Shown here piece after piece: positions 2,134 through 17,970 of a stretch of DNA of 17,970 nt. The DNA comes from a virus. Its lineage: Duplodnaviria; Heunggongvirae; Uroviricota; Caudoviricetes. The position numbers and the translations under genes are program-made. The notes under the pieces are model-generated. The model was not told the origin of the DNA. It did no database searches and saw nothing but the letters and a program-made list of their open reading frames with translations. Positions within the stretch are counted from its first letter, which is position 1; the number at the start of each line of letters is the position of its first letter. The stretch lies in IMG/VR virus record IMGVR_UViG_2648501130_000005, positions 1-17,970 of that record; one strand, given 5' to 3'.

Positions 2134-3060
2134 TCAGCGACCAATCACCACAACCTGACCACCGTCCCCTTCGTCTGCCGTGCTGATCTCCTGAGAAACC
2201 ACGCGAGACCCCACGCGCATTTCCCCGTACAGAACAGGCAGAACATTGCCCTGGGCAACCATGTTATCCAGTGAGGAGAAATAGGTGTTCTGCTTACCGT
2301 TATCCGTTGTCTGTGTACGGGGAGTTCTGGCTTTCGGTGCCAGCATCTGCGCCACACCACCGAGCACCATACTGGCACCGAGAGAAAACAGGATGCCGGT
2401 CATACCACCGGTCCCAATGGCTGCCCCCCATGCTGCAAGGGTGGCTCCGGCGGTAAAGAATGATCCGGCAATGGCGGCAGCCCCCAGGACAATCTGGAAT
2501 ACGCCACCTGACTTGGCCCCGGCGACTCTGGGAACAATATGAATCACAGCGCCATCAGGCAGAGTCTCATGTAACTGCGCCGTTAATATGTGCTGTTTGA
2601 GTTGACTTTCTTTTGCCGCATAGCCGTCACTTTTGCCGCGATATGGCCCCTGGTAATGTTCAGCAAACAGAACGCGTTCTGTTGCGGGAAAATATGCGCG
2701 CAGACTTTCTTTATTACACCCGTTCCATCGTCCGGACGGCTTCGCCCAGATAATATGGTTAAGAACGTTGAAACGTTCACGCATCATGATCTCGATATCA
2801 GATGCGAGGCGATGTCCACAGAACAGGTAAAGGCTTCCGGCAGGTTTCAGCACCCGCCAGAACTGAGCCAGACAGTGGTCCAGCCACTTCAGGTAATCTT
2901 CGTCCCCTTTCCACTGATTGTCCCAGCCGTTGGGTTTCACCTTGAAGTACGGCGGATCGGTAACAATCAGGTCAATGGAATCATCAGGCAGGGACTGAAT
3001 AAAATGCAGGCAATCAGCGTTGATTAAATCAACACTGTTTATTTTTACAGTATTTTTCAT
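2134..3060 (-). CDS. Chimeric ORF: N-terminal ~165 aa of a beta-class DNA methyltransferase (DPPY motif, no AdoMet-binding motif) fused in frame to the C-terminal ~140 aa of tail assembly protein I
   Basis: N-terminus has DLIVTDPPYF (motif IV) but no FxGxG motif follows. From about residue 166 the sequence (TAQLHETLPDGAVIHIVPRVAGAKSGG ... GGQVVVIGR) matches my recollection of the lambda gpI C-terminus. Junction at about nt 2582/2583. Probably a non-functional fusion. Confidence 0.65.
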   Translation of the reverse strand: MKNTVKINSVDLINADCLHFIQSLPDDSIDLIVTDPPYFKVKPNGWDNQWKGDEDYLKWLDHCLAQFWRVLKPAGSLYLFCGHRLASDIEIMMRERFNVLNHIIWAKPSGRWNGCNKESLRAYFPATERVLFAEHYQGPYRGKSDGYAAKESQLKQHILTAQLHETLPDGAVIHIVPRVAGAKSGGVFQIVLGAAAIAGSFFTAGATLAAWGAAIGTGGMTGILFSLGASMVLGGVAQMLAPKARTPRTQTTDNGKQNTYFSSLDNMVAQGNVLPVLYGEMRVGSRVVSQEISTADEGDGGQVVVIGR

Positions 3061-3676: not shown

Positions 3677-5008
3677 ATGTTAGATACACTATCTTTCACT
3701 GAACGTGACGAGTTCCAACGAAGAAACATCGCTGAAAATATCATCAAGTTGCTAAAACCAGAGGCAGACATTTCACCACTGGTAATAGACGGCGCATGGG
3801 GAACAGGGAAAACAGAATTTAGTATCAAACTGAAAAATCTCATTATTGAGCAAGAAACTGAATCTAAAGTTGTTTATATTGATGCCTTTAAAGGGGATCA
3901 TGCAGAATCTCCATTACTTCTCATAACCTCTGCAATTGCCAGCATTTTGCCTGAGGAAGAAAAACAACACTTCATTAAGAGATCTCTTCCTGCAATTCGC
4001 TTTGGTTTAAAAACGGTACTAAAAGCTGGTGCAGGTTGGTTTTTACGACAGGAGGCTAGTGAAGTTGCCGAAGAATTCCAAGATGCGATGAAGAAAGCAA
4101 GCAATGCAGCAATAGATGGGACTATTGAAAATTTGCTTGAAGACCATATGGACTCAGAGAAAAACATAAATTCACTTAAATCCTGCATCGAAAGCATATC
4201 AAAAAATCAAAAAATCGTAATTATAATTGATGAATTAGACCGATGTAAGCCGAGTTTTTCAACAAATGTCATTGAAACAATAAAACACATTTTTGACATC
4301 AATAATGTCTTTTTTATTTTAGTTACAAACACAGAACAATTAAAAGCATCTATAAATCATATTTATGGTTATAGCATTAACTCACAAAAGTATCTTGACA
4401 AGTTTATAAAATATACCATCACGCTTCCAGATACATGTTTGATAAATGGTCACAACGTATGTAAAGCCTCTGTTATATATTGGGATTACCTTGTAGAAAA
4501 AACAAGGTTATTGAATAAAATCAATAGATTATCAGGTTACTTTATCCGTGATTTAATTCAACGAACCAACTTATCATTACGTGAAACACAAACATTTTCA
4601 CGCAATCTTAACATTTTCCAACTGTTAAACGACGATGAGAACAAAAGCAGTGATCCTTTAATAAATATGATCTTTGTCGTAGCTGCCTTCATACATTGCT
4701 TTGGTAACAAGGAAAAACTAAAACAAGAAATTACCGCTGAATCTATATCTTATTTAGCAGACCTGCTTAACATAAAAGAAATACCTTATTCTTATGAGAG
4801 AAGATCGCAAATCCCTGAAATATCGATTGTATTCTTCGGAATAATTAAAGACAGTATTACTCTTAATGAGCGATTTGCCCCTAAAAGTGATGAAGAACTT
4901 AAAAAATTCACAAATGTTTATACTGATTATGAACACATAAATTTTTGGAGTACTACACCCAGAGAGTTATTGATAAAATATATTAATCAAATGTCATTCA
5001 TCCAGTAA
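3677..5008 (+). CDS. KAP-family P-loop NTPase (443 aa)
   Basis: Walker A DGAWGTGKT and the KAP-typical Walker B region IVIIIDELDRCKP. Visibly AT-rich with long A/T runs compared with flanking genes. Ends at the hairpin at 5011-5035. Confidence 0.85.
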   Translation: MLDTLSFTERDEFQRRNIAENIIKLLKPEADISPLVIDGAWGTGKTEFSIKLKNLIIEQETESKVVYIDAFKGDHAESPLLLITSAIASILPEEEKQHFIKRSLPAIRFGLKTVLKAGAGWFLRQEASEVAEEFQDAMKKASNAAIDGTIENLLEDHMDSEKNINSLKSCIESISKNQKIVIIIDELDRCKPSFSTNVIETIKHIFDINNVFFILVTNTEQLKASINHIYGYSINSQKYLDKFIKYTITLPDTCLINGHNVCKASVIYWDYLVEKTRLLNKINRLSGYFIRDLIQRTNLSLRETQTFSRNLNIFQLLNDDENKSSDPLINMIFVVAAFIHCFGNKEKLKQEITAESISYLADLLNIKEIPYSYERRSQIPEISIVFFGIIKDSITLNERFAPKSDEELKKFTNVYTDYEHINFWSTTPRELLIKYINQMSFIQ

Positions 5009-5036: not shown

Positions 5037-5402
5037 TTAAACGTCCAAATCTAATGTTAGATCTAGCATGGAAAGGCAGCCATCAATAAATCCTTCGGCT
5101 AGCTGTATTTCTATACGTATCAATTTCTCATCTTTTTTACGAGCCTTGGCGAGCTTTCTTTTAGAGATACCGTATAGGTAATGGGCAACAAGAAGCGAAT
5201 GTTCGTCCGGCCTTTTTTGCTTTAGATGAGCAAGACAACCTTCAATAATTAAGGCATCACTATCCGAACAAGCCAAGCGTTTCTTGCTTGTATAGGGAAG
5301 AAGTCCCTTAAACCCAGCGGCTATAGGTGAATAATCAACGCCTGAACTATCACTCGCCGCCCATGCCCCCCAACGCTCCAGAACCATCTGAATATCACGC
5401 AT
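5037..5402 (-). CDS. Antitermination protein Q (QuuD-like lambdoid late-gene antiterminator)
   Basis: N-terminus MRDIQMVLERWGAWAA... is the signature I recall for E. coli prophage Q/QuuD proteins. ATG at 5402 with GGTGGAGA upstream; the track's first residue is a TTG one codon earlier. Confidence 0.8.
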   Translation of the reverse strand: MRDIQMVLERWGAWAASDSSGVDYSPIAAGFKGLLPYTSKKRLACSDSDALIIEGCLAHLKQKRPDEHSLLVAHYLYGISKRKLAKARKKDEKLIRIEIQLAEGFIDGCLSMLDLTLDLDV

Positions 5403-5419
5403 CAACTTTCTCCACCAAA

Positions 5420-7635: not shown

Positions 7636-7958
7636 ACTTTCAGCCCCCTCTCATGTAACCAGTGGGCTGCACGCAGCCTTGCGTTTTCCTCACCGGCAAG
7701 CAGTGAGCGGATAATCCCGACCGCCTCGCTGTCGTCGTCCTTCACCGCGGTATGAAGCGTGATCCCCCGGGCCACACCACGCTTTATCGTGATGACGCCT
7801 TTTTTCTCCAGTGCGCGAAGATGCTCCACCGCTGCATTCACCGAACGGTATCCCAGCATGGTTGCCACCTCCTGATTGGTTGGCGGGAAGCCGCGTTCTT
7901 TCTGATAAGAAATCAGCATATCCAGCACCTGCTGCTGGCATTGAGTTAACGTCGTCAT
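7632..7958 (-). CDS. LexA N-terminal DNA-binding-domain-like protein (no peptidase domain)
   Basis: LTQCQQQVLDMLISYQKERGFPPTNQEVATMLGYRSVNAAVEHLRALEKKGVITIKRGVARGITL aligns closely with the LexA N-terminal winged helix as I recall it (…RSPNAAEEHLKALARKGVIEI…). Only 108 aa, so no S24 cleavage domain. ATGA overlaps at both ends. Confidence 0.75.
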   Translation of the reverse strand: MTTLTQCQQQVLDMLISYQKERGFPPTNQEVATMLGYRSVNAAVEHLRALEKKGVITIKRGVARGITLHTAVKDDDSEAVGIIRSLLAGEENARLRAAHWLHERGLKV

Positions 7959-8608
7959 GCCGCCATCTCCCTGACCAGTTTTTCTGCCTGCTGGCGAATC
8001 TGCGCCAGAAAGGCCTCACCACATGCCTCAAGTTCATCGCGCCCGATGTAGCTGATTGCCGGTCCCTTCCAGGTCTTGTCGAAAACAGCAATAGCACCAG
8101 CGAAGAAAGCGCCTGTCGGCACCTGCTTCTCATCCTTCGGGATAAACCAGGCAGGCAGTTCAAAACCAATACGCCCGCGAATAAAAGCAATATGATCTAC
8201 ATCTTCCGGCCACCACACTTCGCTGGTGGCAGCTTTGATCAGGAAAACATAGCGCCCGCCTTTATCACGCATGGCACTGGCATGCTTCATGATGTAACGC
8301 ATGCCGGTGATGTATTGCCCCTCATGCTGACTGGCGCGGCTGTATGGGGGATTACCAAAGGCAGCACCTTTAAGCTCCGCAAGGCGTTCTGACCAGTCAT
8401 GCGCCAGCGCGTTGTCTTCCGCCGTGTAATACGCAGCACATTTGGCGTTATCACCGTCAGTGAACAGATCCAGAACAAACGGGCCAAACAGGGTGTTAAT
8501 TCCCCAGAAAATGTTGTCCGGCGTGCGCCACTGATCGCCCACTTCCTTCAGTTCATGGGCTGGTTTGTTCCGCAGTTCCACCAGCGCCTGGCAATATTTA
8601 TTACTCAT
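7955..8608 (-). CDS. Phage N6-adenine DNA methyltransferase (Dam-type)
   Basis: GNPPYS (NPPY catalytic motif). ATG at 8608 with GTGGGGG upstream, overlapping the upstream TAA (TAATG). The track's GTG extension to 8641 was rejected. Confidence 0.75.
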   Translation of the reverse strand: MSNKYCQALVELRNKPAHELKEVGDQWRTPDNIFWGINTLFGPFVLDLFTDGDNAKCAAYYTAEDNALAHDWSERLAELKGAAFGNPPYSRASQHEGQYITGMRYIMKHASAMRDKGGRYVFLIKAATSEVWWPEDVDHIAFIRGRIGFELPAWFIPKDEKQVPTGAFFAGAIAVFDKTWKGPAISYIGRDELEACGEAFLAQIRQQAEKLVREMAA

Positions 8609-9096
8609 TAAGCCCCCACGTAATTCCCTGAGAGATACCACTCTTCACCTGATGCAGCCCGCTTACTGCTTTTCCGTAAACACCGTTCACGACGCGCCAA
8701 AAAATTGTTTCGTTCTGGCAGGGAGTGGCTTTCACGGAATGCCGCCATCCACACCGTTGCAGCACGACGGTATAAGCCCCTGGACTCCAGTTCTTCCGCC
8801 TGGCGGGTCAGGCACAAAATCACCCGCGGGTCGTTAGTGCCGACATAGAAATTGCGCACAGGTCTGGTTTCACGAACTGGTTGTGGTTCCGGATCCTGCG
8901 CTCTCTCAGTCAGGCGCGGGAAATGTCTGTGTGTATCTCCTTCACAACGGTGAGCCACACGCCCACTCTGACGTAACTTGCTTGCTGACTGCAGAACGCG
9001 CTGCCGTGAGTAACCTGCAAAAGCATCCGCAATGTCTCCGGAAGTACAGCCCGGATGGGCTTCAATGAATTTCTGAACGTCATTCAAAAGACTCAT
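8608..9096 (-). CDS. Putative transcriptional regulator with PerC-like C-terminal region
   Basis: AEELESRGLYRRAATVWMAAF resembles the PerC/Pch core motif (LESAGFWRRAAARW type). ATG at 9096 with GGGGGTGA upstream, 2 nt after the replication gene stop. Confidence 0.55.
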   Translation of the reverse strand: MSLLNDVQKFIEAHPGCTSGDIADAFAGYSRQRVLQSASKLRQSGRVAHRCEGDTHRHFPRLTERAQDPEPQPVRETRPVRNFYVGTNDPRVILCLTRQAEELESRGLYRRAATVWMAAFRESHSLPERNNFLARRERCLRKSSKRAASGEEWYLSGNYVGA

Positions 9097-9098
9097 GC

Positions 9099-9869
9099 TC
9101 ACCCCCTGAATCCTGCCGGGATCTGGCTGTAGTCCACATTGTCGTAACTGGCTTTGAAGTACGGGTCTTCGCGTTTTTCTGTGTACGTGCTGACGGACGG
9201 CGATAAGCGCAGGGAAAGCTCATCCCATTTTTCCCGCAGCTTCGACGGGCTGAGCACGTTACGGCACCAGAACGGATCGCGGCTGACGCGGCTGTACATC
9301 TCGCAGATTTGTTTGTGAGTACGACCATCCTGCACACACATCAGGCGAATTTCGTTTGCCCAGGCTGTCCAGTTCGGTTCTTTGGGACGAACCACCTCGC
9401 CGTCACATTCGGCAGCCTGCTCGTACAGGGCGATGATTTTTTTCCAGAGCCACTGTGCGCAGGTCAAATCATCCTGCGTCCCCCACTGGCGCTTTTTAGG
9501 GCTGAATACAACCGCATCAGGATGGCGAGTTAAAAAATCCTGTTCATCCGTCTGCGTGTCCGGTTGCGAAGCGTCCGGACGAGAAGGTTTTTTATCTGAC
9601 GGATCATGTTTTGATTTTACTGACGGATCCCCGCCAGATTCTGACGGGTGAAAACCCGCTTTTTTGCCAGATTTCGACGCATCAAATTTTGACGGGTCAG
9701 ATTTTGATGCGTCAGATTTTGACGGGTCAGAATCTGACAGTTGAGAAAATGCCGCTGCCTGAAGCTTCGCAACGTTAAGCTGATAAACATTCGACGCATT
9801 GCGGTTACCCACGGTTAGCCTCATCGTTCTGTGGTTTCTGTTAATCGATTTATCCATTAGATTTTTCAT
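9099..9869 (-). CDS. Replication initiation protein (lambda O-like role) with internal iteron-encoded peptide repeats
   Basis: Sits directly downstream of cro. The central SDSDPSKSDASKSDPSKFDASKSG region is encoded by tandem DNA repeats. Start uncertain: ATG at 9869, 9857 or 9824; the track's first codon at 9926 is GTG and lies deep inside cro. Confidence 0.6.
   Translation of the reverse strand: MKNLMDKSINRNHRTMRLTVGNRNASNVYQLNVAKLQAAAFSQLSDSDPSKSDASKSDPSKFDASKSGKKAGFHPSESGGDPSVKSKHDPSDKKPSRPDASQPDTQTDEQDFLTRHPDAVVFSPKKRQWGTQDDLTCAQWLWKKIIALYEQAAECDGEVVRPKEPNWTAWANEIRLMCVQDGRTHKQICEMYSRVSRDPFWCRNVLSPSKLREKWDELSLRLSPSVSTYTEKREDPYFKASYDNVDYSQIPAGFRG
9590..9740. repeat. Iteron array (putative origin of replication) inside the replication initiator gene
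   Basis: At least seven tandem ~15-17 bp copies of a (C)AGATTTTGACGGGTCA-like unit, e.g. attttgacgggtcag / attttgatgcgtcag / attttgacgggtcag. Analogous to the lambda ori iterons inside gene O. Confidence 0.6.
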
Positions 9870-10050
9870 AAAGCTCAGGTTTAAATGGCAACCGTCCGCA
9901 AGTTCTATATGCAGCTTCTGCTGCACGTCCTTTTGGAATTAACTGGCCCGGACGGTTTCGCCACTGATAAACGGCTTCAGTTGTTATGCCGAAAAAAGCA
10001 GCAACTTTCTCAATACTGCCGAAGTAGCTTTCGATATCGTCAGTTGTCAT
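9850..10050 (-). CDS. Cro-like transcriptional regulator
   Basis: 66 aa, divergent from the repressor gene; KVAAFFGITTEAVYQWR is a Cro/YdaS-type helix-turn-helix. Confidence 0.7.
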   Translation of the reverse strand: MTTDDIESYFGSIEKVAAFFGITTEAVYQWRNRPGQLIPKGRAAEAAYRTCGRLPFKPELYEKSNG

Positions 10051-10147
10051 ACGCCCTCCAAACTAAGTTTTATTAGATGCTAATTACAAATCTATCTTTG
10101 GTCAATAAAAACTAAGATTACTTAGCAATTAAAGAAATGGTGCTCCT
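10051..10147. promoter_or_regulatory. Divergent promoter/operator region between cro-like and cI-like genes
   Basis: 97-bp AT-rich intergenic region with two 14-bp palindromes: CTAAGattaCTTAG (10112-10125, perfect) and CTAAGttttATTAG (10063-10076, one mismatch). Minus strand carries TTGACC and a possible -10. Confidence 0.55.
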
Positions 10148-10774
10148 ATGGAAACGGTTGGTCAGCGTATAAAAGCTCTGAGAAGAGTTACCAGAACGTC
10201 CCAGAAAGAATTGGGTAAATTTTGTGGAGTAAGCGACGTTGCTGTGGGGTACTGGGAGAAAGACATCAATACCCCTGGTGGGGAGGCACTTTCGAAATTA
10301 GCGAAGTTCTTCAATACGTCAATAGATTACATTCTTTATGGTGCTGAGTTTGAAGGCAAACTCGTCACAAACATGCGCAGAGTTCCTGTAATATCGTGGG
10401 TTCAGGCTGGGCAGTTTACTGAGTGCAGGGCAGCAGAAGTGTTTAGTGAAGTGGACAAGTGGGTAGATACATCATTAAAGGTTGGTGATAACTCATTTGC
10501 ATTAGAGGTTAAAGGTGACTCCATGACTAACCCTAATGGCCTCCCAACAATACCAGAAGGCGCAACAGTGATTGTAGATCCAGATGCAGAACCTCGTCAT
10601 GGAAAAATAGTCATCGCTCGACTTGATGGAACAAACGAAGCTACAGTAAAAAAATTAGTCATCGATGGCCCTCAAAAGTTTTTAGTACCATTAAATCCTC
10701 GGTATCCCAACATCCCTATCAATGGTAATTGCCTTATCATTGGTGTAGTCAAAGGAGTTCAATACGAACTCTAA
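10148..10774 (+). CDS. CI-like prophage repressor (HTH plus S24 LexA-type autopeptidase domain)
   Basis: N-terminal XRE-type HTH (QKELGKFCGVSDVAVGYWE); C-terminal GDSM and a downstream Lys (VKKLV) typical of S24 self-cleaving repressors. SD-like sequence before the ATG. Confidence 0.85.
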   Translation: METVGQRIKALRRVTRTSQKELGKFCGVSDVAVGYWEKDINTPGGEALSKLAKFFNTSIDYILYGAEFEGKLVTNMRRVPVISWVQAGQFTECRAAEVFSEVDKWVDTSLKVGDNSFALEVKGDSMTNPNGLPTIPEGATVIVDPDAEPRHGKIVIARLDGTNEATVKKLVIDGPQKFLVPLNPRYPNIPINGNCLIIGVVKGVQYEL

Positions 10775-10927
10775 GGCCTCTCTTCTCTAACTAAGGCACC
10801 GAACTAAGAAAAGTTTGGTGTTTTCTCTTGCCATGACAACTAAGTTAAGTTAGATTTTATATCAAAGATAACGAACAGGCAGGACGCCCACGAAGTAGCC
10901 GCCTGGGGCATATGAAGTCCAGGATGA

Positions 10928-10952
10928 TTCGTTAGCAACAAAAAAGCGCCCT
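10928..10952 (-). terminator. Intrinsic terminator on minus strand downstream of the 173-aa gene
   Basis: On the minus-strand RNA: 7-bp stem AGCGUCC / GGGCGCU (one G-U pair), loop UGUA, then UUUUUUGUU. The G-U pair forms only on the minus-strand transcript. Confidence 0.5.
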
Positions 10953-11004
10953 ACAGGACGCTTAGCTCTTTAACAATCTGGGTATCATCCAACCAATGCA
11001 AGAT

Positions 11005-11526
11005 TTAAGGAATCCAAGGCGAATTCAGATCTCGCCCCAACTCACGTAATGATCTTGGTCGTTCGTACATCGGATTTTTTTCCATAAGAAATTTATTTTC
11101 ACAGTGAAGGCAACGGCTTGTAAGAAAATGAGAAGTTTTACCTACTGGAAGCGGATGAAGTATCGATTTTATATTTTTGGAATAACAAAGTGGGCACAGA
11201 TGCACAGTTATTTCTTTTCCACTCACAATTTCATTTTTAGAGTAAACAAAAGCACCAGAGTCAAGCTGATCAAGGACATATCCTTCTACCTTGGCACAAA
11301 AATCTTCAAACTCTGCAATTTTTGCTTTGAGATGCATCACCTCTTCATCACGAAGGCGGATCGCATCGCCAAGAGAGAAGCATTCTGCCTGAAGCGTGAT
11401 TAGTTTGTTCTGGAGTTCAATGGTTGCAGCTTTAACTTCTGCATCCGTTTTCGCGTCATTAATAACCTTAGCAAGACCGGCAGTCTCCTTTATAGCGGCC
11501 ATAGCCGCAGACAGTTCAGCTATCAC
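11005..11526 (-). CDS. Hypothetical coiled-coil / zinc-ribbon protein (moron convergent with cI)
   Basis: 173-codon ORF; N-terminal half is Ala/Lys/Glu-rich helical, C-terminal part has CPLC ... CLHC. C-terminal half is visibly AT-rich. Start is GTG at 11526 or ATG at 11502; neither has a strong SD. Confidence 0.6.
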   Translation of the reverse strand: MIAELSAAMAAIKETAGLAKVINDAKTDAEVKAATIELQNKLITLQAECFSLGDAIRLRDEEVMHLKAKIAEFEDFCAKVEGYVLDQLDSGAFVYSKNEIVSGKEITVHLCPLCYSKNIKSILHPLPVGKTSHFLTSRCLHCENKFLMEKNPMYERPRSLRELGRDLNSPWIP

Positions 11527-11542
11527 GTTGAATACTCAGCTA

Positions 11543-11586
11543 GTTGTTGGGGATATCCAGATTAACCAAATCCTTGTTGTTGGGGA
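11543..11586. repeat. Two exact 11-bp direct repeats GTTGTTGGGGA, 33 bp apart, just upstream of the 173-aa gene
   Basis: Seen directly at 11543-11553 and 11576-11586; function unknown. Confidence 0.5.
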
Positions 11587-11848
11587 ATAACTAGGTCCAC
11601 CTCGCCTGATGTGGCTAAAAGCAGGCACATAACAGCTAAGTATTTTCAACCAGAGAGAATCCTTAGCGTTGTGGTGAATGCGGCTCAGCGCACGCGGGTT
11701 AAGGTTGAGGCTGACAGTCGACCTTCTGTGGATACCCACCCGCCTGGTGTGCAACCTTCGCCAGGCACCGGGAGGCACCCGGCACCACAACTTTATGCTG
11801 TGTGTAGTCCTCGCGGTACCAGTTTGTACACTTGCTTCCGGCTGGTAC

Positions 11849-11947
11849 CGCTCTTTTTACAAAACAGAGAAGAACATCACCGGACGACGGGCTCATAACC
11901 CAATCCATCCGGGCGGCTGCCACCGCAGGTGTTCTTCTCTGTTTTGT
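11849..11947 (+). promoter_or_regulatory. boxA-like motif followed by an 18-bp perfect inverted repeat enclosing 53 nt (nut-like site or structured leader)
   Basis: CGCTCTTTTTAC (11849-11860) resembles boxA. Arms ACAAAACAGAGAAGAACA (11859-11876) and TGTTCTTCTCTGTTTTGT (11930-11947) are exact reverse complements. Lies 49 nt upstream of the yfdP-like ATG. Confidence 0.45.
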
Positions 11948-11995
11948 GGAGAAACCAACCGACCTTGCAGGGTCGATATGATTAGGAGCAGAAAA

Positions 11996-12358
11996 ATGGC
12001 TAGCGAACGCAGTACTGATGTGCAGGCATTTATTGGGGAGCTGGACGGCGGCGTATTTGAAACCAAAATCGGCGCAGTTCTCAGTGAAGTCGCTTCCGGT
12101 GTGATGAACACGAAAACCAAAGGTAAGGTCTCACTCAACCTGGAAATCGAACCATTTGATGAGAACCGTGTGAAAATCAAACACAAACTCTCATATGTTC
12201 GCCCGACTAACCGCGGGAAAATTTCCGAAGAAGACACCACCGAAACGCCGATGTATGTCAATCGCGGTGGTCGCCTGACTATTCTGCAGGAAGACCAGGG
12301 ACAATTACTGACTCTTGCCGGTGAACCTGACGGAAAACTCCGCGCAGCAGGTCATTAA
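11996..12358 (+). CDS. yfdP: YfdP-like early-left protein (120 aa)
   Basis: ATG at 11996 with AGGAG 7 nt upstream; the track ORF from 11678 is an unsupported upstream extension. Length and position match the yfdP-yfdQ-yfdR order I recall from CPS-53. Confidence 0.55.
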   Translation: MASERSTDVQAFIGELDGGVFETKIGAVLSEVASGVMNTKTKGKVSLNLEIEPFDENRVKIKHKLSYVRPTNRGKISEEDTTETPMYVNRGGRLTILQEDQGQLLTLAGEPDGKLRAAGH

Positions 12359-12423
12359 TATCGTTCTTAATTAACCGATTATTTATCTCATCACTGAATA
12401 TCTTTATATAGTGAGGACTTATT

Positions 12424-13248
12424 ATGTCTCAGAACTTAGACGCAACCGCAATTAATCAAATCCATGCCCTTATTTCTGCTCAGGGTGTTAATGAAATTAT
12501 CAGTAAGATTGGTGCCGATGCTGTGGCATTGCCTGAGAATTTCCGCATTCATGATCTGGAAAAATTTAATTTAAATCGCTTCCGTTTCCGTGGTGCGCTT
12601 TCCACTGCCAGCATCGATGACTTTACCCGTTACTCTAAAGATCTTGCAGATGAAGGCACCCGCTGCTTTATCGATGCCGATAATATGCGAGCCGTCAGTG
12701 TGCTTAACCTGGGTACTATTGATGAACCAGGTCACGCAGATAACACCGCCACACTCAAACTGAAAAAGACAGCACCGTTCTCTGCTCTGTTGTCTATTAA
12801 CGGCGAGCGTAACTCCCAGAAGTCACTAGCAGAATGGATTGAAGACTGGGCAGACTATCTTGTGGGCTTTGATGCTAATGGTGACGCTATTCAGGCAACA
12901 AAAGCGGCTGCGGCTGTCCGTAAAATCACGATTGAAGCAAACCAGACCGCTGATTTTGAAGATAATGACTTCAGCGGCAAACGCTCCCTGATGGAGTCTG
13001 TCGAAGCGAAGACCAAAGATATTATGCCTGTGGCATTTGAATTTAAATGCGTTCCGTTTGAAGGCCTGAAAGAACGTCCGTTTAAATTACGCCTCAGCAT
13101 TATCACTGGCGATCGTCCTGTACTGGTTCTGCGCATTATTCAGCTGGAAGCAGTGCAGGAAGAAATGGCTAACGAATTTCGTGATCTGCTTGTTGAGAAA
13201 TTCAAGGACAGCAAAGTAGAAACCTTTATTGGTACTTTCACCGCCTGA
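12424..13248 (+). CDS. yfdQ: YfdQ-like protein (DUF2303 family, 274 aa)
   Basis: GAGGA 6 nt upstream of the ATG. Length and N-terminus [14 protein letters not shown]... match my recollection of K-12 YfdQ. Confidence 0.7.
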
Positions 13249-13260
13249 TTTCATTACTGC

Positions 13261-13282
13261 AAATGCCCCTGCGGGGGCATTT
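13261..13282 (+). terminator. Hairpin downstream of yfdQ-like gene (possible partial terminator or attenuator)
   Basis: AAATGCCCC tgcg GGGGCATTT: perfect 9-bp stem, but only a short T-run follows. Confidence 0.4.
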
Positions 13283-13375
13283 ATGGAAACGTAATTGACT
13301 CAATAATCGCCGGATGGTGAGGGCTTCCTTTTACCAGAATTCAGCGCGGTGCAGCGCATATACGTGGAGAACAAA

Positions 13376-13912
13376 ATGTCATTTATTAAAACTTTTTCCG
13401 GGAAGCATTTTTATTATGACAGGATAAATAAAGACGACATCGTTATTAACGATATCGCGGTTTCTCTTTCAAATATCTGTCGCTTTGCAGGGCATCTTTC
13501 ACATTTCTACAGCGTTGCCCAACATGCGGTGCTTTGCAGCCAACTGGTACCGCAGGAATTTGCTTTTGAAGCGTTAATGCATGATGCAACAGAAGCGTAT
13601 TGCCAGGACATCCCGGCGCCACTGAAACGCCTTCTTCCTGACTATAAACGGATGGAAGAAAAAATAGATGCAGTAATCCGTGAGAAATACGAGTTGCCCC
13701 CGGTTATGAGCACGCCCGTGAAATATGCCGATCTCATCATGCTGGCAACCGAACGCCGTGATCTCGGGCTTGATGATGGCTCTTTATGGCCTGTACTGGA
13801 AGGTATCCCGGCAACAGAGATGTTCAAAGTTATTCCACTGGCACCGGGCCATGCCTACGGGATGTTTATGGAACGCTTCAACGAGTTATCGGAATTACGC
13901 AAATGTGCATAA
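13376..13912 (+). CDS. yfdR: HD-domain phosphohydrolase (YfdR-like, 178 aa)
   Basis: H...HD motif (AQHAV ... LMHDATEAY). ATG at 13376 with GGAGA upstream; the track's GTG at 13349 was rejected. Its 3' end overlaps the next gene by 10 nt. Confidence 0.8.
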   Translation: MSFIKTFSGKHFYYDRINKDDIVINDIAVSLSNICRFAGHLSHFYSVAQHAVLCSQLVPQEFAFEALMHDATEAYCQDIPAPLKRLLPDYKRMEEKIDAVIREKYELPPVMSTPVKYADLIMLATERRDLGLDDGSLWPVLEGIPATEMFKVIPLAPGHAYGMFMERFNELSELRKCA

Positions 13913-14781
13913 CTCATGTAGTTAGTTTTTCTGGCGGGAGAACATCCGCATATCTTGTTCACCTGATGGAAGAACAAAGAAAGGCTGGCAATAACGTCTG
14001 CTACATCTTTATGGATACCGGTTGCGAACATCCGCTGACATACCGCTTTATCCGGGAGGTTGTGAAGTTCTGGGACATACCACTAACTGTGTTACAGGTC
14101 GATATAAATCCTGAGCTTGGGCAGCCAAATGGTTATACAGAATGGGAGCCAAAGGATATTCAGACACGAATGCCGGTGCTTAAACCGTTTATGGACATGG
14201 TTAAAAAGTACGGCACGCCATACATCGGCGGCGCGCTCTGTACTGATAGGCTAAAACTCATCCCTTTCACAAAATACTGCGATAACCATTTCGGGCGAGG
14301 TAATTACATCACATGGCTGGGTATTCGTGCAGACGAACCCCGTAGGCTGAAACCGAAATCGGGCGTCCGGTATCTTGCCGAGCTGTCAGATTTTGATAAG
14401 TCGGATGTTATCCGGTGGTGGCGAAAACAACCTTTTGATTTGCAAATCCCGGAGCATCTCGGGAACTGTGTTTTCTGCATCAAAAAGTCAACGCAAAAGC
14501 TGGGGCTTGCATGTAAAGACGAACCAGGTCTGATGCGAGTTTTTAATGAGCTGGTTACAGGCAAACACGTCAGGGATGGTCATCGCAGAACAGGTAAAGA
14601 CATTATGTACCGTGGTCACCTGACGCTTGACGGAATTGCCAGAATGTCTGCCAACAGCGACTACAGAAATTTGTATCAGGCGATGGTACAGGCCAGGCGA
14701 TTCGATACCGGCTCGTGTTCAGAGTCATGTGAAATCTGGGGTGATCAATTGGAATTGGAATTCAAAGAGGTAGGGGTATGA
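13903..14781 (+). CDS. PAPS-reductase-like PP-loop ATP pyrophosphatase family protein with C-terminal Cys cluster
   Basis: PP-loop VVSFSGGRTSAYL near the N-terminus; Cys pairs (CVFC, CSESC) near the C-terminus. ATG at 13903 overlaps the HD gene stop; the track's 13786 start is an upstream in-frame extension inside the HD gene. Confidence 0.8.
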   Translation: MCITHVVSFSGGRTSAYLVHLMEEQRKAGNNVCYIFMDTGCEHPLTYRFIREVVKFWDIPLTVLQVDINPELGQPNGYTEWEPKDIQTRMPVLKPFMDMVKKYGTPYIGGALCTDRLKLIPFTKYCDNHFGRGNYITWLGIRADEPRRLKPKSGVRYLAELSDFDKSDVIRWWRKQPFDLQIPEHLGNCVFCIKKSTQKLGLACKDEPGLMRVFNELVTGKHVRDGHRRTGKDIMYRGHLTLDGIARMSANSDYRNLYQAMVQARRFDTGSCSESCEIWGDQLELEFKEVGV

Positions 14782-15122
14782 CAACCGAAATTAACTACCA
14801 TGCACTGCTTGAGCGCGCACGGAATAAAGTGCAGAGCATTGAGTTCGCCTTAACACAGAGTGCATTCGCTGAGATTCGCGCTGAGCTTGAAAATGATTTA
14901 GAACTGGCACGGATTGCACTGGCATCTCTGGAAGTTGAGCCAGATGAACGCGCAGCCTATGAATTATTTATGGAAAAGCGTTTCGGTAAAACAGTCGATC
15001 GTCGGAGAGCAAAAAACGGCGATAACGAATACATGGCATGGGATATGACTCTCGGTTGGATCGTCTGGCAGCAACGAGCTGGTATCCATTTTTCAACAAT
15101 GTCACAGCAAGAGGTGAAATAA
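14778..15122 (+). CDS. Hypothetical early protein (114 aa)
   Basis: ATG overlaps the upstream TGA (ATGA) and its TAA overlaps the xis ATG (TAATG). GAGG/GGGG upstream. No recognisable motif. Confidence 0.6.
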   Translation: MTTEINYHALLERARNKVQSIEFALTQSAFAEIRAELENDLELARIALASLEVEPDERAAYELFMEKRFGKTVDRRRAKNGDNEYMAWDMTLGWIVWQQRAGIHFSTMSQQEVK

Positions 15123-15472
15123 TGGAGCCATACAGCCTCACACTCGATGAGGCCTGTCATTTTCTCAAGATATCCAGACCGACTGCCATTAACTGGATAC
15201 GCACAGGGCGTCTTCAGGCAACACGCAAAGATCCCACTAAGAATAAATCTCCTTACCTCACAACACGACAAGCCTGCATTGCGGCTCTTCAGTCTCCGCT
15301 GCATACTGTCCAGGTGAGCGCGGGTGATGGCATAACAGAGGAAAGAAAATGTCACTCTTCCGCAGAGGTGAAATATGGTACGCCAGTTTCACATTGCCGA
15401 ACGGTAAAAGATTTAAACAGTCTCTTGGAACAAAGGACAAAAGGCAGGCGACAGAACTCCATGACAAGCTAA
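15122..15472 (+). CDS. xis: Excisionase (Xis), 116 aa
   Basis: ATG at 15122 with GAGGTGA upstream. HTH-like [24 protein letters not shown]. Overlaps the int start as in lambda/P22 xis-int. The track's 15038 start is an unsupported extension. Confidence 0.7.
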
Positions 15473-16512
15473 AGGCTGAAGCATGGCGGGTCAGCAAACT
15501 TGGTGAAATACCTGATATAACGTTCGAGGAAGCGTGTGTCAGGTGGCTTGAAGAGAAAGCACATAAAAAATCACTGGACGATGACAAAAGCCGGATCGGA
15601 TTCTGGCTTCAACATTTCGCAGGAATGCAACTAAGAGACATTACTGAATCAAAAATTTATTCAGCAATGCAGAAAATGACGAACCGGCGTCATGAGGAAA
15701 ACTGGAAACTCAGGGCAGAAGCATGCAGAAAAAAAGGGAAACCTGTTCCAGAATACACGCCAAAACCAGCGTCCGTTGCAACGAAGGCTACGCATCTTTC
15801 ATTTATAAAGGCCCTACTAAGAGCCGCAGAGCGTGAATGGAAAATGCTGGATAAGGCACCAATTATTAAAGTGCCTCAACCAAAGAATAAACGGATCCGC
15901 TGGCTGGAGCCCCATGAAGCACAAAGGCTGATTGATGAATGTCCGGAGCCATTAAAGTCTGTTGTTGAATTTGCACTGGCAACAGGCTTAAGACGCTCGA
16001 ACATCATCAACCTTGAATGGCAACAAATAGATATGCAGCGCCGGGTGGCATGGATAAACCCAGAAGAGAGTAAATCAAACCGCGCAATCGGCGTTGCGCT
16101 GAATGATACTGCATGTCGCGTTTTGAAAAAACAAATCGGGAATCATCACCGTTGGGTATTTGTGTACAAGGAAAGCTGTACCAAACCAGACGGAACGAAA
16201 GCGCCAACAGTAAGGAAGATGCGGTATGACGCAAACACAGCCTGGAAAGCGGCGCTGAGACGGGCTGGTATTGATGATTTCAGATTTCACGACTTGAGAC
16301 ACACCTGGGCAAGTTGGCTGGTTCAAGCCGGAGTCCCGTTGTCAGTGTTACAGGAAATGGGAGGCTGGGAGTCTATCGAAATGGTTCGTCGATATGCTCA
16401 CCTTGCACCTAATCACCTTACCGAACACGCACGGCAAATAGACTCGATCCTGAACCCATCGGTCCCAAATTTGTCCCAGTCAAAAAATAAGGAAGGTACT
16501 AATGATGTGTAA
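15349..16512 (+). CDS. int: Tyrosine-recombinase phage integrase (P22-type, thrW-specific), 387 aa
   Basis: AGAGGAAAG upstream of the ATG. Catalytic HDLRHTW ... RYAHL motifs. Stops 14 nt before the tRNA-Thr 3' end. Confidence 0.9.
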
Positions 16513-16526
16513 CTTATTGATTTAAA

Positions 16527-16602
16527 TGGTGCCGATAATAGGAGTCGAACCTACGACCTTCGCATTACGAATGCGCTGCTCTACCAACTGAGCTATATCG
16601 GC
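16527..16602 (-). tRNA. thrW: tRNA-Thr (anticodon CGU)
   Basis: Reverse complement reads GCCGATATAGCTCAGTTGGTAGAGCAGCGCATTCGTAATGCGAAGGTCGTAGGTTCGACTCCTATTATCGGCACCA: 7-bp acceptor stem, GTTCGA T-loop, anticodon loop with CGT, encoded CCA. Confidence 0.9.
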
Positions 16603-16716
16603 CCTGAAAGGACATGTTCACGAACGTGAATCACGGTGGACAAGGTTAAAACTAACCGGGCGATGCGTCAATGGCCTTGTGAATCAAATGGCTACTTTTG
16701 CATCACCCGGTTTTAT

Positions 16717-17970
16717 TTACGCACGAATGGTGTAATCACCAATACCGATCCACTTGTAAGTGGTCAGTGCTTCCAGCCCCATTGGGCCACGCGCGTGGAG
16801 TTTTTGTGTGCTTACCGCCACTTCCGCACCTAGTCCAAACTGGCCGCCGTCGGTAAAACGCGTAGAGGCGTTAACGTAAACAGCGGACGAATCCACTTCG
16901 TTAACAAAACGCTGGGCGTTGCGCATATCGCGGGTCAGGATCGCATCGGAGTGTTGTGTGCCGTGTTCACGAATATGGGCGATGGCATCGTCAAGATCAC
17001 TGACGATTTTGACGTTCAAATCTAATGACAGAAACTCATCGTCATACTCTTCCGCTTTAACAGCCACCACCTTCGCGGGGCCTGTCTGCAACTGCGCCAG
17101 CGCAGCTGCATCTGCGTGTAATGCCACGCCGCTTTCCTCCATTTGTTTGCTTAATGCGGGCAGGAAGCTATCGGCGATGTTTTTATTCACCAGCAACGTT
17201 TCTACCGTATTACATGTGCTCGGACGCTGAGTTTTCGCGTTGACGATCACTTTTAATGCTTCAGCAATCTCTACACTTTCATCAACATAAATATGGCATA
17301 CGCCTATACCACCTGTGATCACCGGGATCGTCGACTGTTCGCGGCACAGTTTATGCAAACCAGCGCCACCACGCGGGATCAGCATGTCGATGTATTTATC
17401 CATACGCAGCATTTCACTGACCAGCGCACGGTCAGGATTATCAATCGCCTGCACGGCACCCACCGGTAAGCCACAGGATTTCAGGGCGTCCTGAATCACC
17501 GCCACCGTTGCCGCGTTAGTGCGACAGGTTTCTTTACCGCCACGCAGAATCACTGCGTTACCGGTTTTCAGGCACAGCGAAGCGACATCAACCGTCACGT
17601 TCGGGCGCGCTTCATAAATCACGCCAATAACCCCCAGCGGTACGCGACGACGCTCAAGACGCAGGCCGCTGTCCAGTACGCTGCCATCGATTACCTGCCC
17701 CACCGGATCGGCGAGGTTACACACCTGGCGCACATCATCGGCAATGCCTTTCAGCCGTGCGGGCGTCAGTGCCAGACGGTCAAGCATCGCTTCGCCAAGG
17801 CCATTGGCACGCGCGTCAGCAACATCCTGGGCGTTAGCGTTGAGGATGATTTCGCTTTGTGCTTCCAGTTCATCGGCGATTTTTTCCAGCACGCGATTTT
17901 TTTCGCGGCTGGAGAGTTGCGCTAATTTATACGAGGCTTGCTTCGCGGCAATGCCCATTTGTTCCAGCAT
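16717..17970 (-). CDS. proA: Gamma-glutamyl phosphate reductase ProA (417 aa, host gene)
   Basis: Full-length ORF starting exactly at the window end; [40 protein letters not shown]... matches E. coli ProA as I recall it. Confidence 0.95.

What the first reader, a model, noticed from the sequence alone, without database searches (positions are those of the whole stretch)
10928..11590. Convergent coiled-coil/zinc-ribbon moron inserted beside the repressor gene
A 173-aa ORF on the opposite strand to cI and the early-left operon has its own minus-strand terminator, two exact 11-bp direct repeats upstream and an AT-rich C-terminal half. This is the position where lambdoid phages often carry exclusion genes (rexAB or sieB-like). 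The protein has a helical N-terminal half and a CPLC...CLHC zinc ribbon with no family I can name.
Basis: partly seen in the sequence, partly recalled or inferred. Interest (0 to 1): 0.65.

Follow-up and report, generated by a model that had tools for sequence, protein, structure and literature searches.

The report
Rip1-family pore-forming antiphage gene in prophage
The 173-residue helical and zinc-ribbon protein next to the prophage repressor is a divergent member of the recently described Rip1 family, single-protein defences that assemble around ring-shaped proteins of an infecting phage and punch a pore in the membrane, so it is a real defence gene of a known kind.

Summary
There is a 173-aa minus-strand ORF (11005-11526, GTG start) with a strong minus-strand intrinsic terminator, two exact 11-bp direct repeats upstream, a lower-GC 3' half and four invariant cysteines.

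The "no family" part is out of date. The protein belongs to phrog_1244 (E 2.7e-52). A profile of its homologues hits PDB 9OOX, phage HK446 Rip1 bound to T6 small terminase, at E 1e-20 over nearly full length. The AlphaFold2 model (pLDDT 92.6) has 9OOX as its only significant Foldseek match. It is 25% identical to HK446 Rip1 and 30% to Pseudomonas JBD30 gp30.

By homology it is a single-gene abortive-infection defence. A ring of Rip1 forms around a phage small-terminase or portal ring and makes a membrane pore. That function was not tested here.

Two corrections to the reading:
- **Position.** The gene lies beyond OL/PL, antisense inside the early-left transcription unit, not in the cI-rex position.
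- **Repeats.** They belong to a 100-bp upstream block that is more conserved than the coding sequence across more than 15 genera.

The slot holds other cargo in related phages. My call is a new member of a known kind, of moderate interest.

The parts
11005..11526 (-). rip1-like gene: 173 aa, GTG start, TAA stop. Residues 1-79 form two long helices (amphipathic N-terminal module). Residues 84-150 form a beta-rich domain with a C4 zinc ribbon (C111, C114, C139, C142). Residues 152-173 are a variable tail.
   Evidence: median dN/dS 0.23
10934..10963 (-). Intrinsic terminator for the minus-strand gene (stem 10963-10944, then a T-run). It lies in a block that is conserved whatever cargo occupies the slot.
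11527..11626 (-). Conserved 100-bp upstream block (promoter and leader region). It contains the two direct repeats, an invariant TAATCT hexamer (11564-11559) and a conserved GAG Shine-Dalgarno. Majority-base frequency is 0.83-0.96 across 20 loci, higher than in most of the coding sequence.
   Evidence: no conserved RNA structure; shared with a different cargo gene in phage vB_EcoS-569R4
11543..11553 (-). Proximal direct repeat TCCCCAACAAC (read on the gene's strand), 17-27 nt upstream of the GTG. It is also the point where homology resumes in loci that carry other cargo.
11576..11586 (-). Distal direct repeat TCCCCAACAAC, 33 bp from the proximal copy.
10828..10856 (+). PL-like promoter (TTGCCA, 17 nt spacer, TAGATT) overlapping a cI operator (10837-10853) of the same CTAAG-N4/5-(C)TTAG type as the two OR sites at 10060-10076 and 10109-10125. 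Transcription from here would run antisense through the rip1-like gene.
   Evidence: homology with heteroimmune phages begins at about 10867-10870
10965..10976 (+). rrn-type boxA GCTCTTTAACAA on the PL-sense strand, immediately after the hairpin. It is the only copy in the window, is conserved across genera, and is followed by a degenerate inverted copy of the AATCTGGATATCC..CAAC motif (10974-10992).
   Evidence: the boxA consensus is from my own knowledge of the rrn and lambda nut sites
10148..10774 (+). cI repressor (HTH_3 plus Peptidase_S24), convergent with the rip1-like gene.

Best explanation
The ORF at 11005-11526 (minus strand) encodes a divergent member of the Rip1 ("ring interacting pore 1") family of prophage-borne, single-protein antiphage defences.

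Shown here: full-length sequence and fold homology to characterised Rip1 proteins, conserved architecture, purifying selection, and residence in a prophage cargo slot.

Inferred from the family (review PMC13434031, summarising Patel et al. 2026, and the PDB 9OOX title): the protein is harmless on its own in the lysogen. When a superinfecting phage makes its ring-shaped small terminase or portal late in infection, the C-terminal zinc-ribbon domain binds around that ring. About 12 Rip1 copies are brought together, their N-terminal amphipathic helices form a membrane pore, and the cell lyses or dies before progeny mature (abortive infection).

Inferred from the anatomy: the gene has its own terminator and a strongly conserved 100-bp upstream block. 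It uses a weak GTG start with a GAG Shine-Dalgarno, which would keep expression low. It sits antisense just downstream of PL, so de-repression of PL on induction could switch it off by transcriptional interference and spare the prophage's own terminase and portal.

The more variable, AT-rich C-terminal half is the presumed sensor and probably sets which phages are recognised.
For: - **PHROG membership.** The protein hits phrog_1244 at E 2.7e-52. HK446 Rip1 (gp37) and JBD30 gp30 fall in the same PHROG at 2.2e-53 and 2.7e-61.
- **Sequence homology.** A profile of 37 homologues against PDB sequences gives 9oox_L 'ring interacting pore 1 (Rip1)' at E 1e-20, positions 5-152 against 15-161, with the next hit at E 0.37. 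The single sequence gives E 1.8e-9. BLASTP gives 25% identity to HK446 gp37 (2e-13) and 30% to JBD30 gp30 (3e-20) over about 150 residues with at most 3 gaps.
- **Fold.** The AF2 model has pLDDT 92.6. Foldseek against the PDB returns only 9oox_L and 9oox_M as significant (E 4e-7 and 1.7e-6, probability 1.0, target-normalised TM 0.52 and 0.72); the next hit is at E 0.37.
- **Zinc site.** All four cysteines are invariant across the three clades.
- **N-terminal module.** There is no transmembrane segment (maximum Kyte-Doolittle 19-residue mean 1.06). The first 30 or so residues are moderately amphipathic and rich in small residues, as in HK446 and JBD30 Rip1.
- **Selection.** Median dN/dS is 0.23.
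- **Family size.** 2,492 clusters at 50% identity score E<=1e-3, and the 150 listed are mostly 145-180 aa.
- **Context.** It is an opposite-strand gene inside a lytic operon in all three clades: here, in HK446 between N and an anti-restriction gene, and in JBD30 between the small and large terminase genes.
- **Slot behaviour.** The same slot holds a phrog_5286 gene in vB_EcoS-569R4 and orf33 in SfV.
- **Mechanism of the family.** Review PMC13434031 section 5, conference report PMC12908700 and PMC13601566.
Against: - Nothing functional was tested for this protein.
- Identity to the characterised members is only 25-30%, and the presumed sensor half is the least conserved part (39% for residues 126-151 and 23% for the tail within its own clade). 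The trigger, and even whether there is one, cannot be transferred with confidence.
- The clade has an extra C-terminal tail of about 20 residues and an invariant C49 that HK446 and JBD30 Rip1 lack.
- No convincing sigma-70 promoter was found for the gene. The only candidate is an invariant TAATCT with a poor -35.
- The primary paper could not be read, so the mechanism rests on secondary summaries and the PDB entry title.
- The antisense switch-off idea is pure inference.
Confidence: 0.8

Rival explanations
1. It is a Rip1-fold protein that serves the prophage's own cycle rather than host defence. For example, it could be a timing or lysis accessory that engages the prophage's own terminase or portal ring, or a superinfection-exclusion factor acting by some route other than pore formation.
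For: The gene is embedded antisense in lytic operons in three clades. Its upstream block is tightly conserved, suggesting integration into phage regulation. The clade has its own tail and C49.
Against: Secondary sources report that characterised family members protect lysogens against other phages and are non-toxic alone. The slot carries unrelated cargo in sibling phages, so the gene is dispensable for the phage cycle. It persists in a degraded prophage remnant in E. coli WCHEC020031, which fits a benefit to the host.
Confidence: 0.1
2. It is a zinc-ribbon nucleic-acid-binding regulator, such as a DksA/TraR-like coiled-coil plus C4 zinc-finger protein, or an antirepressor acting on the immunity switch next door.
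For: It combines long helices with a C4 motif and lies adjacent to cI and PL.
Against: Pfam gives no match to zf-dskA_traR or any DNA-binding family, and NCBIfam gives nothing. The only significant sequence and fold match is Rip1.
Confidence: 0.03
3. It is a silent or decaying passenger: an intact-looking ORF that is not expressed in the lysogen.
For: No strict sigma-70 promoter was found on the minus strand. It has a GTG start with a weak Shine-Dalgarno. One Symbiopectobacterium copy has an early stop.
Against: dN/dS is about 0.2 across genera. The upstream block, the GTG start and the terminator are conserved in 19-20 loci. At least 80% of the 711-bp region around the gene is present in 373 of 5,426 complete E. 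coli genomes.
Confidence: 0.05

Closest known systems
Rip1 of Escherichia phage HK446 (gp37, YP_007111990; PDB 9OOX with T6 small terminase)
   Same: Same PHROG (phrog_1244). It aligns over nearly the full length, with the same helices followed by a beta-rich C4 zinc-ribbon domain and all four cysteines aligned. Size is similar (164 against 173 aa). It is also a lone opposite-strand gene inside the PL operon of a lambdoid phage.
   Different: Only 25% identical. The HK446 gene lies between N and an anti-restriction gene, not right after PL. HK446 Rip1 lacks the C-terminal tail of about 20 residues and has Q where this clade has invariant C49. HK446 lacks the conserved upstream block and the AATCTGGATATCC motif. 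The trigger of the window protein is unknown.
Rip1-type protein of Pseudomonas Mu-like prophages (JBD30 gp30, D3112 orf25, DMS3)
   Same: 30% identity over 152 residues (E 3e-20). Same PHROG and same cysteines. It is an opposite-strand gene within a lytic operon.
   Different: It lies between the small and large terminase genes of a transposable phage. The review reports that escape mutations for the Pseudomonas system map to portal. I assume, from its position, that JBD30 gp30 is the type of protein described there; the primary paper was not readable.
RAZR (PD-T7-4), ring-activated zinc-finger RNase
   Same: It works on the same principle: a zinc-finger sensor domain assembles around large rings made by phage proteins such as portal, and that geometry activates the effector (PMC13017515).
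   Different: The effector is a HEPN RNase (DUF4145), not pore-forming helices, and the zinc-finger domain is N-terminal. PADLOC, which I assume holds the PD-T7 systems, gave no hit. No homology is claimed.
Lambda RexAB and lambda/P22 SieB
   Same: They are prophage-expressed abortive-infection or exclusion genes in the immunity and early-left region. RexB is a membrane ion channel whose opening kills the infected cell (my own knowledge).
   Different: There is no sequence or fold similarity. RexAB is a two-gene system co-transcribed with cI from PRM, whereas this is a single gene beyond PL on the opposite strand.

Membership tests
Rip1 (ring interacting pore 1) antiphage family | Significant, near full-length sequence similarity to an experimentally characterised Rip1 | tested here: met
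   Profile against 9oox_L gives E 1e-20 over positions 5-152 of 171. The single sequence gives E 1.8e-9. BLASTP gives 2e-13 to HK446 gp37 and 3e-20 to JBD30 gp30. All three fall in phrog_1244.
Rip1 (ring interacting pore 1) antiphage family | Fold: N-terminal long helices followed by a compact C-terminal domain, matching the solved structure | tested here: met
   The AF2 model has pLDDT 92.6, with H2-24, H28-79 and a six-strand domain. Foldseek against the PDB returns 9oox_L and 9oox_M as the only significant hits, probability 1.0, target-normalised TM up to 0.72.
Rip1 (ring interacting pore 1) antiphage family | CxxC...CxxC zinc-ribbon cysteines in the C-terminal domain | tested here: met
   C111, C114, C139 and C142 are invariant in 37 homologues and aligned with the cysteines of HK446 and JBD30. 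Metal binding itself was not tested.
Rip1 (ring interacting pore 1) antiphage family | Amphipathic N-terminal helix without a classical transmembrane segment | tested here: inconclusive
   The maximum Kyte-Doolittle 19-residue mean is 1.06, so no transmembrane segment is predicted. The hydrophobic moment is only 0.31-0.34 in residues 7-30, similar to HK446 and JBD30. This is consistent but not discriminating.
Rip1 (ring interacting pore 1) antiphage family | Stand-alone small gene carried by a prophage | tested here: met
   The window is a lambdoid prophage at tRNA-Thr/proA, with int, cI, cro, Q and other phage genes. The gene has its own terminator and no operon partner.
Rip1 (ring interacting pore 1) antiphage family | Oligomerises (about 12-mer) around a ring of phage small terminase or portal and forms a membrane pore | not testable with these tools
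   This needs co-expression, cryo-EM and liposome assays. Only monomer prediction was available.
Rip1 (ring interacting pore 1) antiphage family | Protects against phage infection by premature lysis or abortive infection, and is non-toxic alone | not testable with these tools
   Experimental. Reported for family members only in secondary sources.
DksA/TraR C4 zinc-finger proteins | Match to the zf-dskA_traR domain after a coiled coil | tested here: not met
   Pfam scan at E<=0.01 gave only a sub-threshold DUF641 hit. NCBIfam gave nothing significant.
Known defence systems in PADLOC v2 (assumed to include RexAB and the PD-T7 and PD-lambda systems) | HMM match to any model | tested here: not met
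   The only hit was a chance-level typeIV_DinG match at E 0.023. The library dates from 2023 and predates Rip1.

The most novel reading that the evidence does not exclude
The Rip1 homologue sits in a dedicated, genus-spanning cargo slot at the very start of the PL transcript. The slot supplies the expression signals: a 100-bp upstream block with two TCCCCAACAAC repeats and an invariant TAATCT, a shared terminator fused to an rrn-type boxA, and inverted AATCTGGATATCC motifs at both ends of the cargo. Its antisense position makes defence expression the mirror image of PL activity. The gene would be on in the lysogen and silenced by antiterminated PL read-through on induction, so the prophage does not trigger its own pore. 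If so, this would be a general self/non-self safeguard for late-sensing abortive-infection genes, and it would explain why Rip1 genes are antisense in lytic operons in three unrelated phage groups.
Probability: 0.3. Interest if true: 0.55.

Novelty: new member of a known kind. Interest (0 to 1): 0.35.

Why it matters
The result gives a function to a protein that RefSeq calls "hypothetical" (WP_000559913.1). At least 80% of the 711-bp region around the gene is found in 373 of 5,426 complete E. coli genomes (about 7%), and related copies occur in prophages of more than 15 enterobacterial genera.

The protein belongs to a clade only 25-30% identical to the studied Rip1 proteins, and its sensor half is highly variable. 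Testing it would show how far trigger specificity (small terminase or portal, and which phages) has diversified.

The regulatory anatomy is not covered in the sources I could read. It offers a testable answer to how a prophage avoids setting off a defence that senses packaging proteins it also makes itself.

Tried and rejected
- **Family libraries.** Pfam, NCBIfam and PADLOC gave no usable hit for the ORF. Only PHROGs did, and that family has no annotated function.
- **DksA/TraR-like regulator.** Rejected, because there is no domain match.
- **Structured RNA in the upstream block.** RNAalifold consensus energies were only -4.4 kcal/mol (sense) and -7.9 kcal/mol (antisense). Single-sequence z-scores were +1.5 (sense, dinucleotide shuffles), and about 0 (sense) and -0.5 (antisense) with mononucleotide shuffles. 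No convincing covariation was seen. Rejected.
- **Rfam on 10775-12000.** The permissive E-value search found nothing new apart from STnc100.
- **Repeats as cI operators.** The direct repeats do not resemble the OR and OL operators. Rejected.
- **Pairing of the inverted AATCTGGATATCC copies.** They differ independently between loci and show no compensatory change. An invertible segment is unsupported, because all 20 loci have the same orientation.
- **Promoter.** The strict sigma-70 scan found no minus-strand promoter upstream of the gene.
- **Primary paper.** Patel et al. 2026 could not be retrieved by DOI or PMID, and no preprint was found.
- **Alternative cargo.** The phrog_5286 gene in vB_EcoS-569R4 has no Pfam or PADLOC hit.

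Full report
**What is in the sequence**

The window is the left arm and immunity region of a lambdoid prophage of the SfV / CPS-53 / mEp460 type, integrated at tRNA-Thr next to proA. Reading rightwards, it contains:
- a Q antiterminator, DUF968, KilA-N, RusA, Dam and a PerC-like gene, all on the minus strand
- a further 275-aa minus-strand ORF (9099-9926) with no Pfam match, at the position where the replication protein O gene is annotated in vB_EcoS-569R4
- a P22-Cro-like gene (9850-10050, minus strand)
- cI, with HTH_3 and Peptidase_S24 domains (10148-10774, plus strand)
- the ORF in question (11005-11526, minus strand)
- an Rfam STnc100 match (11638-11860, plus strand)
- yfdP, yfdQ and a PAPS-reductase-like gene, all plus strand, then the integrase (15349-16512), the tRNA and proA

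- **ORF.** It encodes 173 aa from a GTG start.
- **Terminator.** A minus-strand hairpin at 10963-10944 is followed by a T-run.
- **Repeats.** Two exact GTTGTTGGGGA copies lie at 11543-11553 and 11576-11586.
- **Composition.** GC is 0.456 in the first half of the ORF and 0.372 in the second.
- **Zinc ribbon.** The CPLC...CLHC motif is present.

**What the protein is**

Pfam, NCBIfam and PADLOC (2023) give nothing. PHROGs places it in phrog_1244, a family of unknown function, at E 2.7e-52. A search of about 5.8 billion proteins found 167 clusters, all named "hypothetical" and nearly all from Enterobacterales. An alignment of 37 of them shows an invariant CxxC...CxxC and a well-conserved helical N-terminal half.

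A profile of that alignment, searched against PDB sequences, hits 9oox_L, "ring interacting pore 1 (Rip1)". The E-value is 1e-20 over positions 5-152 of 171, and the next hit is at E 0.37. The single sequence already gives 1.8e-9.

The AlphaFold2 model is confident (pLDDT 92.6). It has helices at residues 2-24 and 28-79, followed by a six-strand domain. Its only significant Foldseek matches in the PDB are chains L and M of 9OOX, [quoted passage not shown]. Probability is 1.0 and target-normalised TM reaches 0.72.

tblastn links the protein directly to HK446 gp37 relatives and to the gp30 / orf25 genes of Pseudomonas Mu-like phages such as JBD30, DMS3 and D3112. BLASTP gives 25% identity to HK446 gp37 (2e-13) and 30% to JBD30 gp30 (3e-20). 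Both of those proteins fall in the same PHROG, and the four cysteines align in all three clades.

The family is large. A profile search of 1.84 billion representative proteins found 2,492 clusters at E<=1e-3 and 767 at E<=1e-10. The 150 listed are mostly 145-180 aa. Median dN/dS across genera is 0.23, so this is a functional coding gene.

**How it most likely works**

I could not retrieve the primary paper (Patel et al. 2026, Nature 651:1060). A review (PMC13434031) and a meeting report (PMC12908700) summarise it as follows:
- Rip1 is prophage-encoded and non-toxic alone.
- Escape mutations map to portal in Pseudomonas phages and to small terminase in coliphages.
- Cryo-EM shows 12 Rip1 subunits around an 11-mer small-terminase ring.
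- The N-terminal part is an amphipathic helix, and the C-terminal half contacts the ring.
- The assembly forms a pore that releases dye from liposomes and causes premature lysis.

By homology I assign this mechanism to the window protein. Homology, architecture and context are shown here; trigger, oligomerisation and pore formation are inferred.

The inferred mechanism fits the conservation pattern within this clade. The helical effector half is 76% identical on average, residues 126-151 only 39%, and the tail 23%. That is what an arms race on the sensor would produce.

The N-terminus has no transmembrane segment and only a moderate hydrophobic moment, as in HK446 and JBD30 Rip1. This is consistent with the model but does not discriminate.

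The gene is not in the rexAB position. Several observations place PL between cI and the gene:
- **Operators.** The repeat search found the cI operators. Two lie in OR (10060-10076 and 10109-10125) and a third copy of the same CTAAG-N4/5-(C)TTAG type lies at 10837-10853, between the cI stop codon and the gene.
- **Promoter.** That third operator sits inside a plus-strand promoter-like site, TTGCCA-17-TAGATT, at 10828-10856.
- **Mosaic boundary.** Homology with heteroimmune relatives (SfV, SfIV, PhiR49) begins at about 10867-10870, which is where the start of a shared PL transcript would be expected.
- **boxA.** An rrn-type boxA, GCTCTTTAACAA (10965-10976), lies on the plus strand right after the hairpin. 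It is the only copy in the window and is conserved across genera. The boxA consensus is from my own knowledge.

So PL lies between cI and the gene, and PL transcripts must cross the gene in antisense to reach STnc100 and yfdP. HK446 Rip1 is likewise antisense in the PL operon, between N and an anti-restriction gene. JBD30 gp30 is antisense between the small and large terminase genes.

I infer, without having tested it, that lytic transcription silences the gene when the prophage itself is induced.

**The repeats and the slot**

Across 20 loci from more than 15 genera, the 100 bp upstream of the start codon (11527-11626) have a majority-base frequency of 0.83-0.96. That is higher than in most of the coding sequence, and conservation drops sharply beyond 11627. 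The block holds both TCCCCAACAAC repeats, an invariant TAATCT hexamer (11564-11559, a possible -10), a conserved GAG Shine-Dalgarno and a GTG start (19 of 20 loci).

The block has no conserved RNA structure on either strand. It is therefore more likely a promoter or protein-binding region, or an unstructured C-rich leader. I cannot tell which.

In phage vB_EcoS-569R4, which has the same cI, the segment 10982-11542 is replaced by an unrelated minus-strand gene (phrog_5286). The replacement joins exactly at the proximal repeat and keeps the terminator and boxA block. SfV carries yet another gene, orf33, in this slot.

Most rip1 loci also have an inverted copy of AATCTGGATATCC..CAAC right after the stop codon. 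The window's own copy is degenerate.

Megablast with the 711-bp segment 10930-11640 (gene, terminator, boxA and upstream block) matched 1,123 of 5,426 complete E. coli genomes. 373 of them cover at least 80% of the query, so they carry this gene.

**Verdict**

The protein is a new, divergent member of the recently described Rip1 family and not a new kind of system. What remains open, and is mildly novel, is its trigger specificity and the conserved regulatory slot with its antisense placement.

Noticed in passing
window 3677-5008 (+): A KAP-family P-loop NTPase (443 aa) lies on the opposite strand just past the Q antiterminator (5037-5405, minus strand). It matches the PADLOC candidate defence system PDC-S20 at E 4.5e-177, with a weaker hit to PifA. 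It is probably a second defence moron in the same prophage.
   Followed up: partly
window 11638-11860 (+), plus hairpin 11859-11947: There is an Rfam STnc100 (RF02076) match at 49.1 bits (gathering threshold 47) in the long leader between the rip1-like gene and yfdP. A hairpin with 25-nt arms follows it. STnc100 is a prophage sRNA family that a 2026 preprint relates to PasD. RefSeq annotates a frameshifted hypothetical CDS over the equivalent region.
   Followed up: partly
window 11527-11626 (-) and 10965-10992 (+): The non-coding block upstream of the gene is more conserved than the gene itself across more than 15 genera. An AATCTGGATATCC..CAAC motif occurs in inverted orientation at both ends of the cargo in most loci, and the downstream copy is fused to an rrn-type boxA. 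No RNA structure or covariation was found, and the function is unexplained.
   Followed up: partly
L001 (phage vB_EcoS-569R4) 3883-4550; L026 (SfV) 2591-2887: The same slot between the PL leader and the repeat block carries unrelated cargo. In 569R4 it is a 144-aa minus-strand gene (phrog_5286, no Pfam or PADLOC hit) plus a 68-aa plus-strand ORF. In SfV it is orf33. These are candidate unknown defence or moron genes.
   Followed up: partly
window 13786-14781 (+): A PAPS-reductase-domain protein in the early-left operon gives a PADLOC hit to SspD (E 4e-14). It may be a phage DNA-modification or anti-defence function.
   Followed up: no
window 2134-3060 (-) and 7955-8641 (-): The prophage has two DNA methyltransferases: an N6_N4_Mtase (PADLOC MTase_II, 7.7e-74), whose ORF also carries a short lambda tail-assembly-I-like stretch (possibly a fusion or a mis-joined ORF), and a Dam-family methylase.
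   Followed up: no
L007 (Trabulsiella odontotermitis) 3698-3922; L020 (Symbiopectobacterium purcellii) 4001-: L007 has a second, partial rip1-like stretch (34% identity) immediately upstream of its full-length copy, and it lacks the distal repeat. The L020 copy has a stop at codon 13 and is a likely pseudogene in a symbiont.
   Followed up: no
L027 (E. coli WCHEC020031) 9971-17583: In this complete genome the 711-bp segment 10930-11640 is 100% identical, but the prophage is a remnant. cro and ymfL abut tail-fibre genes directly, yet the cI, rip1-like, yfdP and int genes are retained.
   Followed up: no
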